Assembly (NCBI RefSeq): GCF_055900595.2
Contig: NZ_CM148325.1
Length of the DNA: 64,000 nt
Strand: one strand, 5' to 3'
Below are positions 9,001 to 13,334 of the stretch, piece by piece. Position numbers: made by a program. Position 1 is the stretch's first letter. Every line of letters begins with the position of its first letter.

Positions 9001-12000
9001 GGAGGCAAATACCAGCAGGCGATACAGGCCGCAACGGCAGCGGTACAGGGACTGGTCGGCGGTAATCTGAGTGCAGCCCTGGCAGGTGGTGCAGCGCCGT
9101 ATATTGCTGAAATTATCAAACAGACCACCCCGGATGGTGCGGGACGTGTGGCAGCTCATGCAGTAGTGAATGCAGCCCTGTCTCTGGCACAGGGTAAGAA
9201 TGCTCTTGCTGGTGCCGCAGGCGCTGCCACCGGCGAGGTGGTGGGAATGATAGCCACACAGATGTACGGTAAGCCGGTGAGTGAACTGAGCGAGACAGAG
9301 AAACAGACGGTCTCCACGCTGGCAACGGTTGCTGCCGGTCTGGCCGGTGGTCTGGTGGGAGACTCAGGTGCTTCAGCGGTAGCCGGAGCACAGTCAGGTA
9401 AGACGACGGTTGAAAACAATATGCTGAACGTGATAGCCACTGAAACAGCGGCTAATACGGCAGCAGCAATAGCTGGTGCTACAGGTAATGCCAGTAGGGA
9501 TACCGGGAATGATAATAGCTGGGATATTGGTGGTGGTTGTGAAGGCTCACGGGAACAGTGTGCTGTACGTGACCCGAGTCGCGATGGTACCCGGGGACCG
9601 GGGCATGTGCTGAATGGCGACAATACAGACGAAAACAAACAGCCGAATCTGGGCAAAGACGTAGCGAGCGCTACGGATAAGGATAAAGCTGAGCTTGGTG
9701 GTGCAGGTGCTGGAACACCGGGTGGGTGGGGACCGGATAATGAAGAAAAAGCCCGTCATCAGGAGGTTCAGCAACAACGATTTGATGAACTGAGTAAAAT
9801 ATATGATAAAAGTCACCCGGTCGGAGAGTTAACAGTGGATGGGCAGACTATCAGGCAGAGTTCGGTAAGTAACCGTTATGGTACGACGAAAGTGTTTGAA
9901 AGCCAGAATCTGACGGATAAACAGATCCACAATTACGCACAACAGCTGGCAGGAGATACACCGCTGAAAGAGGTTCGGCCGGGGATCTATACTGCAAAGC
10001 TGAATAACGGAACATCGATCACGTTGCGGAATTTATCGTCGTCCCAAGAACAAACAGGCGCCAGATGGACTATTGATATTAGAGGGAATCAGCAATTGGC
10101 TGAAATTGCACATAAATACGGACGTCAGGTTGAAATTAAATTTAGGTGAGCATTATGTTGACTGAAAATGAGTATCGTGAAACAGCTGACGCATCGGAGA
10201 TGCAAGCGTTAAGTGGTTTATGGGCTTACAGTATTCCAGATCATGTTGATAGCGCAGTATTCAGTTTTGATGAAAGGAAAAAACTCTTTTTCTGGATATT
10301 TGAGCGCCTTCTGAAAGAAGGGCGCATCAAACTCGCCAAGCACGGTAAGTTTCTGGAAGGCAGTGTTGACGAGCAGGTTGAGCGTTTCCGACAGGCATTT
10401 CCAAAAACAGAAGAAGAGATGGAAGACGGTATCTGGTTTTTTGATGAGAGCTGTCCGGGAGGAGCTGTCTGGGTGCTTGAAGATGGCTCTCTCGAATGGA
10501 CCTGATAAACCCGTTCATAGTGCAGGATGCGGTGCAGCAAGCGTATAACAACGATATGACAGCCTCAGGTTTTGGAACGGGAGGCAAATACCAGCAGGCG
10601 ATACAGGCCGCAACGGCAGCGGTACAGGGACTGGCCGGCGGTAATCTGAGTGCACCCTGGCAGGTGGTGCAGCGTCGTATATTGCTGAAATAATCAAAAA
10701 TACCCCCCCCGGACTGTGCGGGAAGTGTGGTAGCTCATGCCTTGGTGAATGCCGCACTGGCTGTGGCACAGGGAAATAACGCTCTTGCCGGTGCCGCAGG
10801 GGCTGCCACCGGCGAGGTGGTGGGAATGATAGCCACACAGATGTACGGTAAACCGGTCAGTGAACTGAGCGAGGCAGAGAAGCAGACGGTCTCGACACTG
10901 GCAACGGTTGCTGCCGGTCTGGCCGGTGGTCTGGTGGGAGACTCAGGTGCTTCAGCGGTAGCCGGAGCACAGTCTGGTAAGGCGGGGGGCGAAGGTAGTT
11001 GGTTCGTGAATTGGTTGGAATTCTGTAATATTAATAATAAAAATCGCTAAATGGTTATTCGGGGATACTCGATTGAATAAATTTATATATTTTCTGTTAG
11101 CAGGTATTTTATTTTCGGGACAGGTGGATGCAGCACGGGGAAGAAAACCCTGCTCGGGTGCTAAAGGTGGCATTTCACACTGTACGTCAGACGGACGTTT
11201 TGTCTGTAACGACGGAAGTCTGAGTCAGTCGAAACGCTTTTGTTCCGGTTATGGCGTGGCACCCGGCAAACGTCAGGTGAAATCACCTGTCACCACGAAG
11301 CCGGTTCAGAAGAAAAAATCAGTGGCTGTCCGGAAGGTGCCACAACCGTCGGTGGCTGAGAAAGATGAGTCTGTACCGGTCACTGAGCCGCGTAAACCCA
11401 CCTGTGCGCCGCTTTATATGGCCAGCAAACCCGGATTCACGCATCTGCCTATTTGTTCCGGTAATCAGTATTAATCTGACACTGAAATAGCAGAGGCATC
11501 TGTGCTCAGCCTGCAGTTAACCCTGTATTGGCGAGCATCATAAAGCCGGACATCCTTCCGGGTATAAATATTTCCGGAGGGCGTTAATCAGAAATATTCA
11601 GTTACGGAGAAGGAAAATAAAGGAAAGTCATGGCAGGAAGAAAAAAAAGATGATAATGCAGCGGGATTTGTCCTGATTTTAGTTTGCGTTATTCTCTGGG
11701 GGATTTATGTGGCGGTCAGGACGCTGATAAACCTTAATGAGCGCTTTATTGATGCAGTATCGAATCCGGCAGGTATTATTGGTTTGTTTTTTGGTTTGCT
11801 TACCGTATTTGCAATTTTATTTCGTTTTTTTATTTACCGGAGACTCAGAAAGAAAACAGCAGCATTTGAGCAGGCCGTTTCAGAGCTGGTTCAGAGAGAA
11901 CGGGATTTTAATGAAACTGTCAATGCCGCTATAGCCCGGGGAATACGACAGGAAAAGGAGCAGCTTGCCAGACGTCGTGAGGAATTTCATACCACCAGAA

Positions 12001-13334
12001 AGAAGGCCGGCCGTGCAATGCAGCGGATTGTTGATTCTGCCTGGAAATTTAAGGCGAAGACTCTGCTGGCTGGTGTAACGATTAATAACTGGCAAAGCAA
12101 ATATGACCAGCTTCGTAAGGAAAGAGAGGCTTACGCTGCTGTCAGTGAGAAAATTGCCTTTCTTAACCTGGAAGATAATTCTGACTGGGAGAGTGTCAGG
12201 CAACAGTTTCTGGACAAAGTGGCATTGCTGGAAAAAGCGCAGGAAGAAAAGGAATATCAGGCAGAGCTTAAGCGTCAGATGCGTGAAGAAAAAGAGCGTC
12301 AGGATGAACTTGACCGGCGCCAGCGGGAAGCGGAAGAGGAAGAACGGCGTCTTGCTGAGCAGCAGAAACTGATTGAGGAGGCGCTGCGCGCAGCAGAAGG
12401 GGCTCACAGGGAGGAGTTAGAGAAACAACGCCTGGAGCTGGAACAGAAAATTCAGGAAGCGCATGCGCAGTATGAACGTGCTAAATCCATGGCTCAGCTT
12501 ACGAAACAGGGGCATGTTTATATCATTTCGAATATTGGTTCGTTTGGTGAGGATGTCTTTAAAATTGGCATGACCCGACGGCTGGAACCCATGGACAGGG
12601 TCAAAGAGTTAAGTGGTGCTTCTGTTCCGTTTGATTTTGATGTTCACGCCATGATTTCCTGTGATGATGCGCCCGCGCTGGAAAAAACACTTCATGACAG
12701 TCTGGAAAAATACCGCATCAACAGGATTAACCTGCGTAAAGAATTTTTCCGCGTGAAGCTTGAGAAAATCATTAATGAAGTGGAGCGTCACCACGGGCAG
12801 GTGGAATATGTGGCTGACCCGGCAGCACTGCAGTATCTGCAGAGTCTGGAGTGCGCGGAAAATGAAGCTGCCTGACAATCAGTGTTCTGATTTTATTCCG
12901 GCCGGATATAACAGAAGGGATATCTGCACATATCCTGCAGCATGGTTCACGGTATTCCGGTCATGTTAATGATTCTGTTTTTTTATTTCTGAATAAAATG
13001 ACACCCACGATATAACGTCGTGGGTGTCGGTGATGATTATTTTTTTGTTCACAGATTAAGGTGCGTTTATGGCGAAACTGATAAATGTATCGGCGTCCAC
13101 TGAGGAGAGAATGACGTCCGGGGAGAGGAGGGTGGCTTCACGACTGGAGAGCTTTCTGAATGATGAGTGCCTTGTCTGGTACGATATTCCGGTGGGACGG
13201 AAAAACCGGCATCCGGATTTTGTCATTATTGACCCGGAAAACGGACTGCTGTTTCTGGAGGTCAAGGACTGGACGGTTTCCACGCTGCGCCAGGCAAATC
13301 AGGAGCAGGTCACGCTGGAAACCGACGGTCTTCT

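What the first reader, a model, noticed from the sequence alone, without database searches (positions are those of the whole stretch)
11709..12875. Membrane-anchored coiled-coil T5orf172/DUF4041 protein, candidate single-gene phage-defence or abortive-infection factor
The domain architecture (N-terminal TM helix, very long E/R/K-rich coiled coil, C-terminal GIY-YIG-like T5orf172 domain) recurs in defence islands, and here it heads a run of defence-like genes. Its function as a stand-alone system is to my knowledge not established.
Basis: partly seen in the sequence, partly recalled or inferred. Interest (0 to 1): 0.55.

Follow-up and report, generated by a model that had tools for sequence, protein, structure and literature searches.

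The report
Frameshifted SNIPE-like membrane nuclease gene
This gene is a divergent relative of SNIPE (PD-λ-1), an already-characterised membrane-anchored nuclease that cuts phage DNA as it is injected; in this strain a one-base slip in a run of A's has knocked its true start and first membrane helix out of frame, and its relatives sit, unusually, inside a type VI secretion gene cluster.

Summary
The ORF (11709-12875, +, 388 aa) is real, with a TM helix, long E/R/K-rich helices and a C-terminal T5orf172/GIY-YIG domain. The architecture is not uncharacterised. It is PD-λ-1 (Vassallo 2022), renamed SNIPE (Saxton 2026, Nature), a direct-defence nuclease that cleaves phage DNA during injection. PADLOC PD-Lambda-1 scores E=5.5e-89. 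The protein is 53% identical to E. coli SNIPE over linker plus nuclease, and E325 matches catalytic E414.

1. Pfam finds no DUF4041. Only profile-profile comparison (76-89% vs controls below 3%) and matching predicted topology indicate a reduced DUF4041-like core.
2. Intact orthologs are 414 aa with two TM helices. Here the poly-A tract after the native ATG (11630) is A8 instead of A7, so the called ORF is a residual reading frame from an internal GTG. The tract is A6-A9 across 16 gene copies, and PGAP calls several copies pseudogenes.
3. This subfamily lies between tssE and the TagA-like gene of the Sci-1 T6SS cluster in E. coli, Serratia and Enterobacter. It is as conserved as the core T6SS proteins. 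It fell outside published SNIPE homolog sets.

Verdict: a new variant of a known kind, probably impaired in this strain. Interest is moderate.

The parts
11630..11653 (+). Native start codon (ATG 11630, preceded by the AAGGAAAG RBS) now heading only a 7-codon stub, MAGRKKR*, because of the frameshift
   Evidence: Intact orthologs begin MAGRKKDDNAAGF from this ATG.
11641..11648 (+). Poly-A tract, A8 here. A7 is the in-frame state. It is A6, A7, A8 or A9 in other E. coli copies, which makes it a slippage hotspot.
   Evidence: Tally over 16 gene copies: A7 x8, A8 x6, A9 x1, A6 x1.
11649..11708 (+). Twenty codons in frame with the main ORF (DDNAAGFVLILVCVILWGIY) that encode the ancestral first TM helix. 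They no longer have a start codon.
   Evidence: Hydropathy peak of 2.96 at residues 10-29 of the intact protein.
11709..12875 (+).
11769..11837 (+). TM helix, residues 21-43. This is TM2 of the intact protein. It is followed by RRLRKK (positive-inside), so the C-terminal part should be cytoplasmic.
12000..12233 (+). Mid-domain, residues 98-175: helix, 'GVTINN' loop, helix, loop, helix. It is a reduced DUF4041-like core. W112 and N127 correspond to SNIPE's invariant F203 and N218.
   Evidence: Pfam negative. hhalign gives 76% and 88.7% against controls of 0-2.7%. The topology matches the SNIPE model at an offset of +91.
12234..12506 (+). Two long E/R/K-rich linker helices, homologous to the 'downstream alpha helix' of SNIPE
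   Evidence: The BLASTP alignment with SNIPE starts at residue 185. AF2 models helices 160-228 and 232-266.
12510..12791 (+). T5orf172/GIY-YIG nuclease domain, residues 268-361. Y271, K285-I-G287, R290/R291, E325 (matches SNIPE catalytic E414) and N338 are all intact.
13000..13028 (.). Hairpin with an 11-bp stem, followed by a T-rich stretch. It separates the gene from the NERD/UvrD gene and looks like a terminator. It is conserved in EAEC 042.
11073..11474 (+). YdcA-like 133-aa gene, the conserved upstream neighbour in E. coli and Enterobacter T6SS clusters
13069..14856 (+). NERD + UvrD-type helicase, the downstream neighbour. It is not an obligate partner, because it is absent from the Enterobacter locus.
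   Evidence: PADLOC C3a187, 2.5e-139. Context.
15270..16643 (+). ImpA_N + VasL (TagA-like) gene, the remaining piece of the Sci-1-type T6SS cluster that ancestrally framed the gene

Best explanation
The gene belongs to the SNIPE / PD-λ-1 family of membrane-anchored GIY-YIG (T5orf172) nucleases. It falls in a distinct subfamily whose intact form is 414 aa and has these parts:
- a two-TM hairpin anchor
- a short stalk
- a reduced DUF4041-like helical core
- two long linker helices
- the nuclease domain

By analogy with SNIPE (inferred, not shown here), the intact protein sits in the inner membrane with its nuclease in the cytoplasm. There it would cut foreign DNA as it crosses the membrane, and membrane tethering would keep it off the chromosome.

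In this window a recent one-base expansion of the poly-A tract (A7 to A8, codons 5-7) puts the native ATG out of frame. Only a 7-codon stub is translated from the real start.

The copy is therefore most likely silent or weakly expressed. Some protein could still be made in three ways: re-initiation at the GTG, which would give a one-TM form with SNIPE-like N-out/C-in topology; RNA-polymerase slippage on the A8 run; or a +1 ribosomal shift at AAA-AGA.

The gene was not acquired here as a free defence cassette. It is an ancestral accessory gene of the Sci-1-type T6SS cluster (between tssE and tagA). In this strain it has outlived the loss of the T6SS core genes, which were replaced by a CDI locus.
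For: **Family assignment**
- PADLOC PD-Lambda-1 matches at 5.5e-89 and 1.4e-83.
- Pfam finds T5orf172 and MUG113.
- The protein is 53% identical to the 500-aa E. coli SNIPE (WP_000195116.1) over residues 185-380, at a constant offset of +89. This places E325 on catalytic E414.
- All family-invariant nuclease residues are present.
- Foldseek against AFDB50 returns DUF4041/T5orf172 proteins at about 1e-22.

**Mid-domain**
- hhalign gives 76% against DUF4041-positive relatives and 88.7% (E=2.6e-6) against the merged profile. Reversed, shuffled and linker controls give 0-2.7%.
- A bridging group of Pfam-negative relatives matches the DUF4041-positive group at 98.7%.
- The helix-loop-helix-loop-helix boundaries match the SNIPE model (121/212, 122-127/213-218, 128/219), and N127 aligns with the invariant N218.

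**Frameshift**
- Orthologs are 414 aa and start MAGRKKDDNAAGF.
- The window carries A8 where intact copies carry A7.
- Repairing the tract in silico restores a clean 414-codon ORF.
- The nearest intact allele (EJN001) differs by only 6 nt.
- PGAP flags the same A8 tract as 'frameshifted' in copies that also carry an 11-bp deletion.

**T6SS origin**
- The same slot is occupied in EAEC 042, E100341, C5, Serratia and Enterobacter.
- Orthologs are 77.5-84% identical across genera with no indels, compared with TssE at 73-80%.
- In E. coli the gene is in about 140 genomes and this tssE is in 115.

**Mechanism of the family**
- From Saxton et al., Nature 2026.
Against: - No experiment exists on this subfamily. 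Published SNIPE homolog sets required at least 80% blastp coverage, and this protein covers only about 40% of SNIPE.
- DUF4041 is required for SNIPE defence. Here it is below Pfam detection, and the protein lacks SNIPE's extra helix 146-165 and beta-hairpin 173-183. Target recognition could therefore differ or be absent.
- PGAP annotates the 388-aa GTG ORF as a normal CDS in A8-only genomes. An SD-like GGGGGA precedes the GTG, so the truncated form may be expressed normally.
- Conserved synteny inside a T6SS operon is atypical for a defence gene and may point to a different role.
- dN/dS within the window's clade is about 1, but this rests on only 6-8 substitutions and is uninformative.
Confidence: 0.6

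Rival explanations
1. The 388-aa ORF is the functional gene in this lineage. Translation starts at GTG 11709 and yields a one-TM, N-out/C-in protein with the same topology as E. coli SNIPE, which works as a normal stand-alone anti-phage nuclease.
For: - PGAP calls it an ordinary CDS in three A8-only genomes or loci.
- The ORF has no other lesion.
- The retained TM is followed by RRLRKK.
- An SD-like GGGGGA lies 5 nt upstream of the GTG.
- SNIPE itself has a single TM with a periplasmic N-terminus.
Against: - The GTG and its SD-like motif are simply codons (W-G-I-Y-V) of the ancestral TM1. They occur identically in intact alleles, so they were not selected as a start.
- The strong RBS and the ATG lie 79 nt upstream and lead to a stop codon.
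- The A8-only state is very recent, at 6 nt from an intact allele.
- Sister copies with A8 have accumulated further lesions, as expected after inactivation.
Confidence: 0.2
2. The subfamily is not primarily an anti-phage gene. It is an accessory (Tag-like) component of the Sci-1-type T6SS, working with the neighbouring membrane-associated TagA/VasL protein or acting on DNA in the context of T6SS activity. In this window it would be a decaying relic of a lost T6SS.
For: - The gene occupies a fixed position between tssE and tagA in three genera.
- It keeps its length and is as conserved as, or more conserved than, core T6SS proteins, including the N-terminal and mid-domains that diversify in SNIPE.
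- In EAEC 042 the accessory genes EC042_4547-4549 are transcribed with the cluster in an RfaH/ops-dependent manner.
- Seven of the 17 sampled E. coli copies carry inactivating lesions beyond any change in the poly-A tract, and three more are A8-only.
Against: - The closest relatives outside the cluster are prophage genes (Mu-like prophage and phage φP27), as with canonical SNIPE.
- The whole architecture and the catalytic residues are those of a validated defence nuclease.
- Intact copies persist in strains whose T6SS is already destroyed, namely O104:H4, EJN001 and MB06234.
- The tssE-tagA slot also takes up a NERD/UvrD helicase in some genera only, so it behaves like an insertion hotspot.
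- No paper in the searchable library links T5orf172 or GIY-YIG to T6SS function.
Confidence: 0.13
3. The poly-A tract is a genuine phase-variation switch (contingency locus). It reversibly toggles the gene between ON (A7, two-TM protein) and OFF or an altered form (A6, A8, A9). The window would then show an OFF phase, not a dead gene.
For: - Four tract lengths occur among 16 copies.
- Length changes occur within each of three allele clades: A7 and A8 in the window's clade, A8 and A9 in the 11-bp-deletion clade, and A7 and A6 in the third.
- The tract sits at codons 5-7, the typical position for translational phase variation.
- Three A8 copies are otherwise intact.
Against: - A7-A8 runs are short for efficient slippage.
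- Half of the off-length copies carry additional irreversible lesions, so much of the variation may be neutral drift in dead genes.
- Orthologs in other genera were all called at 414 aa.
- Within-strain switching has not been observed.
- Homopolymer assembly errors cannot be excluded for individual genomes.
Confidence: 0.12
4. It is an abortive-infection toxin or a homing-endonuclease-type T5orf172 gene, as seen in phage genomes, and not a direct-defence nuclease.
For: - T5orf172 domains occur in phage homing endonucleases and in PLE nucleases (papers listed).
- SNIPE lacking its TM is toxic through DNA cleavage.
Against: - The membrane anchor and the long coiled coil are the SNIPE architecture, not that of a homing endonuclease.
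- PD-λ-1/SNIPE is described as direct defence.
- The retained TM2 should still tether the protein.
- The gene shows no mobility signature and is syntenic across genera.
Confidence: 0.03

Closest known systems
SNIPE (= PD-λ-1; ECOR26 RCP76574.1; WP_000195116.1; Vassallo et al. 2022 Nat Microbiol; Saxton et al. 2026 Nature)
   Same: - Single-gene architecture: N-terminal membrane anchor, helical stalk, central helical domain, long linker helices, C-terminal T5orf172/GIY-YIG nuclease.
- 53% identity over linker plus nuclease.
- The catalytic Glu is conserved (E325 matches E414).
- The PADLOC PD-Lambda-1 HMM matches at 5.5e-89.
- Secondary-structure boundaries match from the Asn loop onward.
   Different: - 414 aa (388 as called here) against 500 aa.
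- Two TM helices ancestrally, against one.
- The TM-to-domain stalk is about half as long.
- The central domain is below the Pfam DUF4041 threshold and lacks SNIPE's helix 146-165 and beta-hairpin.
- BLAST finds no similarity N-terminal to residue ~185.
- It lies in a chromosomal T6SS cluster and is conserved across genera, whereas SNIPE is prophage-borne and diversifying.
- It falls outside the 80%-coverage homolog set used in the literature.
- It has not been tested experimentally.
- It is frameshifted in this window.
phrog_8430 / phage φP27 'GIY-YIG nuclease family protein' and the Mu-like prophage homolog P0121
   Same: The mid-domain subtype (FKxKTLLxG...N motif), the linker and the nuclease are the same. 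Identity is 64-65% over residues ~117-413. phrog_8430 matches at E=3e-125 over almost the full length.
   Different: The N-terminal anchor differs, and the context is a prophage. These are mobile copies, not T6SS-resident ones.
Other membrane-associated anti-phage nuclease systems (Zorya ZorD, Kiwa), as discussed by Saxton et al.
   Same: The concept is shared: foreign DNA is sensed or attacked at the inner membrane during injection.
   Different: They are unrelated in sequence, are multi-gene systems and use different sensing mechanisms. The comparison is made from the literature only.
T6SS accessory genes EC042_4546-4549 of the EAEC Sci-1 cluster
   Same: The intact ortholog (WP_000897032.1) is one of these genes. 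It lies between tssE and tagA and is transcribed with the cluster.
   Different: No function has been assigned to them in the literature that could be searched. The exact old locus tag of the T5orf172 gene was not resolved here.

Membership tests
SNIPE / PD-λ-1 | C-terminal T5orf172/GIY-YIG nuclease domain with the catalytic Glu (E414 in SNIPE) | tested here: met
   - PF10544 at 8.8e-17 and PF13455 at 9e-19.
- BLASTP gives 53% identity, with E325 aligned to E414.
- The invariant residues Y271, K285, G287, R290, R291, E325, H329 and N338 are present.
SNIPE / PD-λ-1 | Central DUF4041 (PF13250) domain, required for defence and DNA binding | tested here: inconclusive
   - Pfam gives no hit at E<=10, and none of the 120 closest homologs has PF13250.
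- Remote evidence is positive. hhalign gives 76% and 88.7% against controls of 0-2.7%. The spacing to the nuclease is conserved. N127 aligns with the invariant N218. The AF2 topology matches.
- SNIPE's N-terminal helix and beta-hairpin of the domain are absent.
SNIPE / PD-λ-1 | N-terminal membrane anchor within the first ~70 residues | tested here: met
   - Hydropathy of 2.39 at residues 21-43.
- The intact form has two peaks, at 10-29 and 46-68.
- 7% of published SNIPE homologs also have two TMs.
SNIPE / PD-λ-1 | Long alpha-helical linker between the central domain and the nuclease | tested here: met
   AF2 models helices 160-228 and 232-266, against SNIPE 246-317 and 321-355. The BLASTP alignment covers 185-266.
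SNIPE / PD-λ-1 | Match to the PADLOC PD-Lambda-1 profile | tested here: met
   PDLC03976 at 5.5e-89 and PDLC03977 at 1.4e-83. The match covers only profile positions ~187-476 of ~491-496.
SNIPE / PD-λ-1 | blastp hit to PD-λ-1 with at least 80% query coverage (the criterion that defined the published homolog set) | tested here: not met
   The alignment covers SNIPE residues 274-470 only, about 40% of the protein. The criterion is stated.
SNIPE / PD-λ-1 | [quoted passage not shown] | not testable with these tools
   This needs plaque assays, labelled-DNA injection assays and proximity labelling.
SNIPE / PD-λ-1 | Intact reading frame from the native start codon | tested here: not met
   The A8 tract at 11641-11648 puts ATG 11630 out of frame, and a stop follows after 7 codons. 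The frame is intact in EAEC 042, O104:H4 and other strains.
GIY-YIG nuclease superfamily | GIY...YIG motifs, conserved Arg, metal-binding Glu and Asn; alpha/beta fold | tested here: met
   - At sequence level the motifs are present: HVY271, K285-I-G287, R291, E325 and N338.
- AF2 predicts a beta-beta-alpha-beta-alpha fold for 268-361.
- Fold-level support is weak. The best PDB hits are the Slx1 GIY-YIG nucleases at E of only 0.37-0.44.
T6SS accessory (Tag) gene of the Sci-1-type cluster | Conserved position inside the T6SS cluster across genera | tested here: met
   The order tssJ-tssE-(YdcA)-T5orf172-(NERD/UvrD)-ImpA_N/VasL is found in E. coli 042, E100341 and C5, in Serratia and in Enterobacter. 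Divergence is comparable with TssE.
T6SS accessory (Tag) gene of the Sci-1-type cluster | Contribution to T6SS assembly or activity | not testable with these tools
   No report was found. This needs deletion mutants and sheath imaging.
Phase-variable contingency locus | Homopolymer near the 5' end whose length differs between closely related strains and sets the reading frame | tested here: met
   A6, A7, A8 and A9 occur among 16 copies. Changes occur within each allele clade.
Phase-variable contingency locus | Reversible switching within a clonal population at elevated rate | not testable with these tools
   This needs deep amplicon sequencing or reporter fusions.

The most novel reading that the evidence does not exclude
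A lineage of SNIPE-family membrane nucleases has been domesticated as a conserved, co-transcribed accessory gene of the Sci-1-type type VI secretion cluster of Enterobacterales, sitting next to the membrane-associated TagA. This would link a DNA-entry nuclease to a contractile-weapon locus. A slippage-prone poly-A tract at codons 5-7 would toggle the gene between a two-TM form and an OFF or one-TM form.
Probability: 0.2. Interest if true: 0.7.

Novelty: new variant of a known kind. Interest (0 to 1): 0.4.

Why it matters
**For annotation.** The finding shows that a 'hypothetical membrane coiled-coil T5orf172 protein' is now interpretable as a SNIPE-family nuclease. It also shows that the ORF called here, and in RefSeq, hides a 5' frameshift that removes one of two membrane helices.

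**For biology.** The subfamily widens the SNIPE family in three ways that current homolog sets miss:
- It has a minimal DUF4041-like core. This could help define which part of DUF4041 is essential for DNA binding and for tape-measure binding.
- It has a hairpin two-TM anchor.
- It has a stable chromosomal home inside a T6SS operon and is conserved like a core component. This runs against the expectation that defence genes turn over quickly and that SNIPE's N-terminal and central domains diversify.

If the T6SS linkage is functional, it would connect anti-phage DNA-entry surveillance with interbacterial weaponry. If it is only a hotspot effect, it still marks the tssE-tagA interval, and the region downstream of tagA, as defence-gene landing pads in Enterobacterales.

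Tried and rejected
- **NCBIfam.** No model hits the protein.
- **Pfam DUF4041.** Negative, both for the protein and for its whole subfamily.
- **Foldseek against PDB.** Nothing significant. The best nuclease hits are Slx1 at E~0.4, and the other hits are generic helical bundles.
- **NERD/UvrD helicase as an obligate partner (two-gene system).** Rejected, because it is absent from the Enterobacter locus while the T5orf172 gene is retained.
- **RfaH ops element next to the gene.** There is no GGTAGNNT match between 11000 and 13200. The window-wide count (8) is below the chance expectation (18). In EAEC 042 the nearest + strand match lies inside the NERD/UvrD CDS, so the published 'ops2' could not be mapped onto this window.
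- **A8 as a pure assembly artefact.** Considered unlikely. The same tract occurs in six independent records, and the 386/388-aa product is seen on 9 contigs from three sources. It cannot be excluded for this particular window.
- **Sigma-70 promoter scan.** No more hits than in shuffled sequence.
- **dN/dS within the window's clade.** There are too few substitutions (6-8) to be informative.
- **Old EC042 locus tag.** I could not resolve which tag (4546-4549) corresponds to the gene.

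
Full report
**1. The observation**

The window contains an ORF at exactly 11709-12875 on the + strand: 388 aa from a GTG start. PGAP annotates the same ORF as 'GIY-YIG nuclease family protein' in near-identical E. coli genomes.

- Residues 21-43 form one strongly hydrophobic segment (Kyte-Doolittle 2.39 over 19 aa).
- Residues 161-240 are 62% E/R/K/Q.
- Pfam finds T5orf172 (PF10544, 8.8e-17, residues 268-360) and the overlapping MUG113 (9e-19).
- Pfam finds no DUF4041 even at E<=10. None of the 120 closest database homologs carries PF13250.

The TM, coiled-coil and T5orf172 parts of the description are confirmed.

**2. The architecture is already known**

PADLOC matches PD-Lambda-1 at 5.5e-89 and 1.4e-83, but only over profile positions ~187-476.

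PD-λ-1 was recovered in a functional selection from ECOR26. [quoted passage not shown] The protein is RCP76574.1, 500 aa, with DUF4041 at 197-252 and T5orf172 at 357-448 (PMC9519451).

It has since been renamed SNIPE and its mechanism worked out (bioRxiv 2025, then Nature 2026, PMC13190303):
- A single N-out/C-in TM helix tethers it to the inner membrane.
- Deleting the TM makes it toxic through cleavage of host DNA.
- E414A abolishes defence, and so does deletion of DUF4041.
- DUF4041 binds DNA and probably the tape-measure protein.
- The protein associates with ManYZ.
- It cleaves λ DNA during injection, which is direct defence and not abortive infection.
- It does not reduce plasmid transformation.

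**3. Direct comparison with SNIPE**

I recovered a 500-aa 'SNIPE associated domain-containing protein' (WP_000195116.1) from a lambdoid prophage. It has the same Pfam coordinates as the published PD-λ-1.

- The window protein is 53% identical to it over residues 185-380, aligned to SNIPE 274-470.
- The offset is a constant +89, which puts E325 on catalytic E414.
- BLASTP finds no similarity upstream of residue 185.

A 65-sequence family alignment shows that all invariant nuclease residues are present: G268, Y271, N275, K285, G287, R290, R291, E325, H329 and N338.

No solved structure of this family exists. The best PDB fold hits to the nuclease part are the Slx1 GIY-YIG nucleases, at a non-significant E of ~0.4.

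**4. The central domain**

Among the 65 relatives, 27-32 have a Pfam-detectable DUF4041 and the rest do not, including the window's own subfamily.

Profile-profile comparison gives the following:
- Pfam-negative 'LTxNNY' relatives against DUF4041-positive 'RAFNGE' relatives: 98.7%, E=3e-16.
- The window's own subfamily (11 sequences) against DUF4041-positive relatives: 76%, E=2e-5.
- The window's own subfamily against the merged profile: 88.7%, E=2.6e-6.
- Controls (reversed profiles, 20 column-shuffled profiles, and the linker coiled coil): 0-2.7%.

The aligned register puts W112 and N127 on the two invariant DUF4041-region residues of the SNIPE-anchored alignment, F203 and N218.

The AF2 models are confident (pLDDT 88 and 84) and give the same element boundaries at an offset of +91/+89:

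| Element | Window protein | SNIPE |
|---|---|---|
| Helix end | 121 | 212 |
| Loop | 122-127 | 213-218 |
| Helix | 128-148 | 219-236 |
| Long helix | 160-228 | 246-317 |
| Helix | 232-266 | 321-355 |

SNIPE has an extra helix (146-165) and a beta-hairpin (173-183) N-terminal to this core, and a stalk about twice as long.

I conclude that the window protein has a reduced, highly diverged DUF4041-like core. This is an inference from remote homology and predicted structure. It is not a family-threshold match.

**5. The ORF is a truncated reading frame**

Orthologs in Enterobacter, Serratia, Hafnia, Citrobacter and Pantoea, and most E. coli copies, are 414 aa. They begin MAGRKKDDNAAGFVLILxCVILWGIY, which is an additional TM helix.

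In the window:
- That ATG is present at 11630 behind a good RBS.
- The following poly-A tract (11641-11648) is A8 instead of A7.
- Translation from the real start therefore ends after MAGRKKR*.
- The codons for TM1 (11649-11708) stay in frame with the main ORF but have no start codon.
- Repairing the tract in silico restores a clean 414-codon ORF.
- The nearest intact allele (EJN001) differs by only 6 nt, so the lesion is recent.

Across 16 gene copies (the window, 14 E. coli genome loci and one gut-metagenome contig) the tract is A7 in 8, A8 in 6, A9 in 1 and A6 in 1. Length changes occur within each of three allele clades.

PGAP marks several copies as pseudogenes ('frameshifted' or 'internal stop'). 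Some of these carry further lesions: a shared 11-bp deletion in a GAAGAGGAAGAA repeat, a nonsense codon, and a 24-bp deletion.

Diverged intact alleles show dN/dS of 0.08-0.30, which indicates past purifying selection.

Whether the A8 allele makes protein cannot be decided here. There are three possible routes:
- Initiation at GTG 11709, which has a fortuitous GGGGGA 5 nt upstream.
- RNA-polymerase slippage on the A8 run.
- A +1 ribosomal shift with AAA in the P site and the rare AGA codon in the A site. This would regenerate exactly MAGRKKDD... (inference only).

**6. Genomic context**

- NERD+UvrD helicase (PADLOC candidate C3a187, 2.5e-139).
- An OLD-family nuclease (1.5e-78).
- An IS3-disrupted PAPS-reductase/IbrB pair.
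- A complete type I R-M system.

The gene's own history is different, however.

- In EAEC 042, the model strain for the Sci-1 T6SS, the order is tssJ, tssE, a 133-aa YdcA-like gene, the intact 414-aa gene (WP_000897032.1), NERD/UvrD, a 101-aa gene, then ImpA_N/VasL (TagA). The gene is thus one of the 'accessory genes EC042_4546-4549', which are transcribed with the cluster in an RfaH/ops-dependent way.
- The same slot is occupied in other E. coli, in Serratia with the NERD helicase, and in Enterobacter bugandensis without it. The helicase is therefore not an obligate partner.
- Across these genera the protein keeps 414 aa without indels and is 77.5-84% identical. The comparison values are TssE 73-80%, TssJ 46-56% and TagA 42-63%.
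- By region, the mid-domain is 79-81% identical and the anchor 70%. In SNIPE those parts diversify.
- In complete E. coli genomes the gene is in ~140 of 5,426, this tssE is in 115, and TagA remnants are in 1,507.
- In the window the T6SS core has been replaced by a cdiBAI locus with orphan toxin modules.
- Relatives of the same mid-domain subtype do occur in phages: φP27 (64% identity over residues 117-413), a Mu-like prophage (65%), and phrog_8430 (3e-125). The module therefore probably entered the T6SS cluster from a phage and became fixed there.
- I found no paper linking T5orf172 or GIY-YIG genes to this T6SS slot.

**7. Relation to published SNIPE homolog sets**

Both papers used blastp with at least 80% query coverage. 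The window protein covers about 40% of SNIPE, so this subfamily was not part of the 1,141 (later 474) homologs analysed.

RefSeq names canonical copies 'DUF4041' or 'SNIPE associated domain-containing protein', but names this gene only 'GIY-YIG nuclease family protein'.

**8. Verdict**

The gene is a member of the SNIPE/PD-λ-1 family in the broad sense: nuclease, linker, anchor and PADLOC profile all match. It represents a distinct, untested variant with a minimal DUF4041-like core, a two-TM anchor and T6SS-cluster residence.

In this window it is 5'-frameshifted and most likely impaired.

The most likely mechanism of the intact protein is cleavage of DNA entering across the inner membrane, with membrane tethering preventing self-damage. 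This is inferred from SNIPE.

The rivals are:
- a functional one-TM form;
- a T6SS-related role;
- true phase variation;
- abortive infection or homing, which is unlikely.

Interest is moderate (0.4). The main claim of the finding is already explained by published work. The T6SS-embedded, conserved subfamily and the hypervariable start-proximal poly-A tract are new and testable.

Noticed in passing
window 3986-11050: A contact-dependent inhibition locus: a cdiB/ShlB-like gene, a CdiA C-terminal region with a VENN motif, DUF596 immunity, and an orphan VENN/CT fragment at 10496-11050. It occupies the place where EAEC 042 has the T6SS core genes, so one interbacterial weapon seems to have replaced another.
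   Followed up: partly
window 3901-3908: A GGTAGCGT match to the core of the RfaH ops element, lying about 80 nt upstream of the cdiB-like ORF. The window-wide count of this motif is below the chance expectation, so the match may mean nothing.
   Followed up: no
window 13000-13028: A perfect 11-bp-stem inverted repeat (GACACCCACGA...TCGTGGGTGTC) with T-rich flanks, between the T5orf172 gene and the NERD/UvrD gene. It is conserved in EAEC 042 and looks like a bidirectional terminator.
   Followed up: partly
window 13069-14856: The NERD + UvrD-type helicase matches the PADLOC candidate 'C3a187' at 2.5e-139. It accompanies the gene in E. coli and Serratia but not in Enterobacter. RefSeq names it '3'-5' exonuclease'. 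It is an unvalidated candidate defence gene.
   Followed up: partly
window 15270-16643: An orphan TagA-like T6SS gene (ImpA_N + VasL) remains although the T6SS core is gone. Fragments of this gene are found in 1,507 of 5,426 complete E. coli genomes, which marks a widespread decayed T6SS locus.
   Followed up: partly
window 16785-18491 (and L001 19143-25027): The slot downstream of the TagA-like gene holds an OLD-family nuclease here (low GC, 0.33-0.40) and a KAP NTPase plus QatBCD in strain GmM062. It is a variable defence hotspot.
   Followed up: partly
window 19508-22441: The PAPS-reductase (IbrA-like) gene is cut short by an IS3-family insertion (orfA 20475-20813, orfB 20840-21658). The IbrB/ParB-like partner lies at 21803-22441. 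The pair is intact in EAEC 042.
   Followed up: partly
window 24877-30774: A complete type I restriction-modification operon (hsdR 1014 aa, hsdM 544 aa, hsdS 410 aa), followed by sucrose-utilisation-type genes (fructokinase at 31836-32756 and a LamB-family porin).
   Followed up: partly
L004, L006, L011, L012 (E. coli A41, 300709, CE0011b, SC422), gene codon ~238: Four copies share an 11-bp deletion inside a GAAGAGGAAGAA repeat of the coiled-coil region. This is a second indel-prone site in the gene. The protein P0002 shows an in-frame 2-codon loss at the same place.
   Followed up: partly
L008 3958-5460 and L009 3761-5437: Canonical SNIPE genes in E. coli sit in a lambdoid prophage (between ren and a P22AR-like gene) and in the P2-like cI-integrase hotspot. 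About 255 complete E. coli genomes carry such DUF4041-type copies, more than carry the T6SS-type gene.
   Followed up: partly
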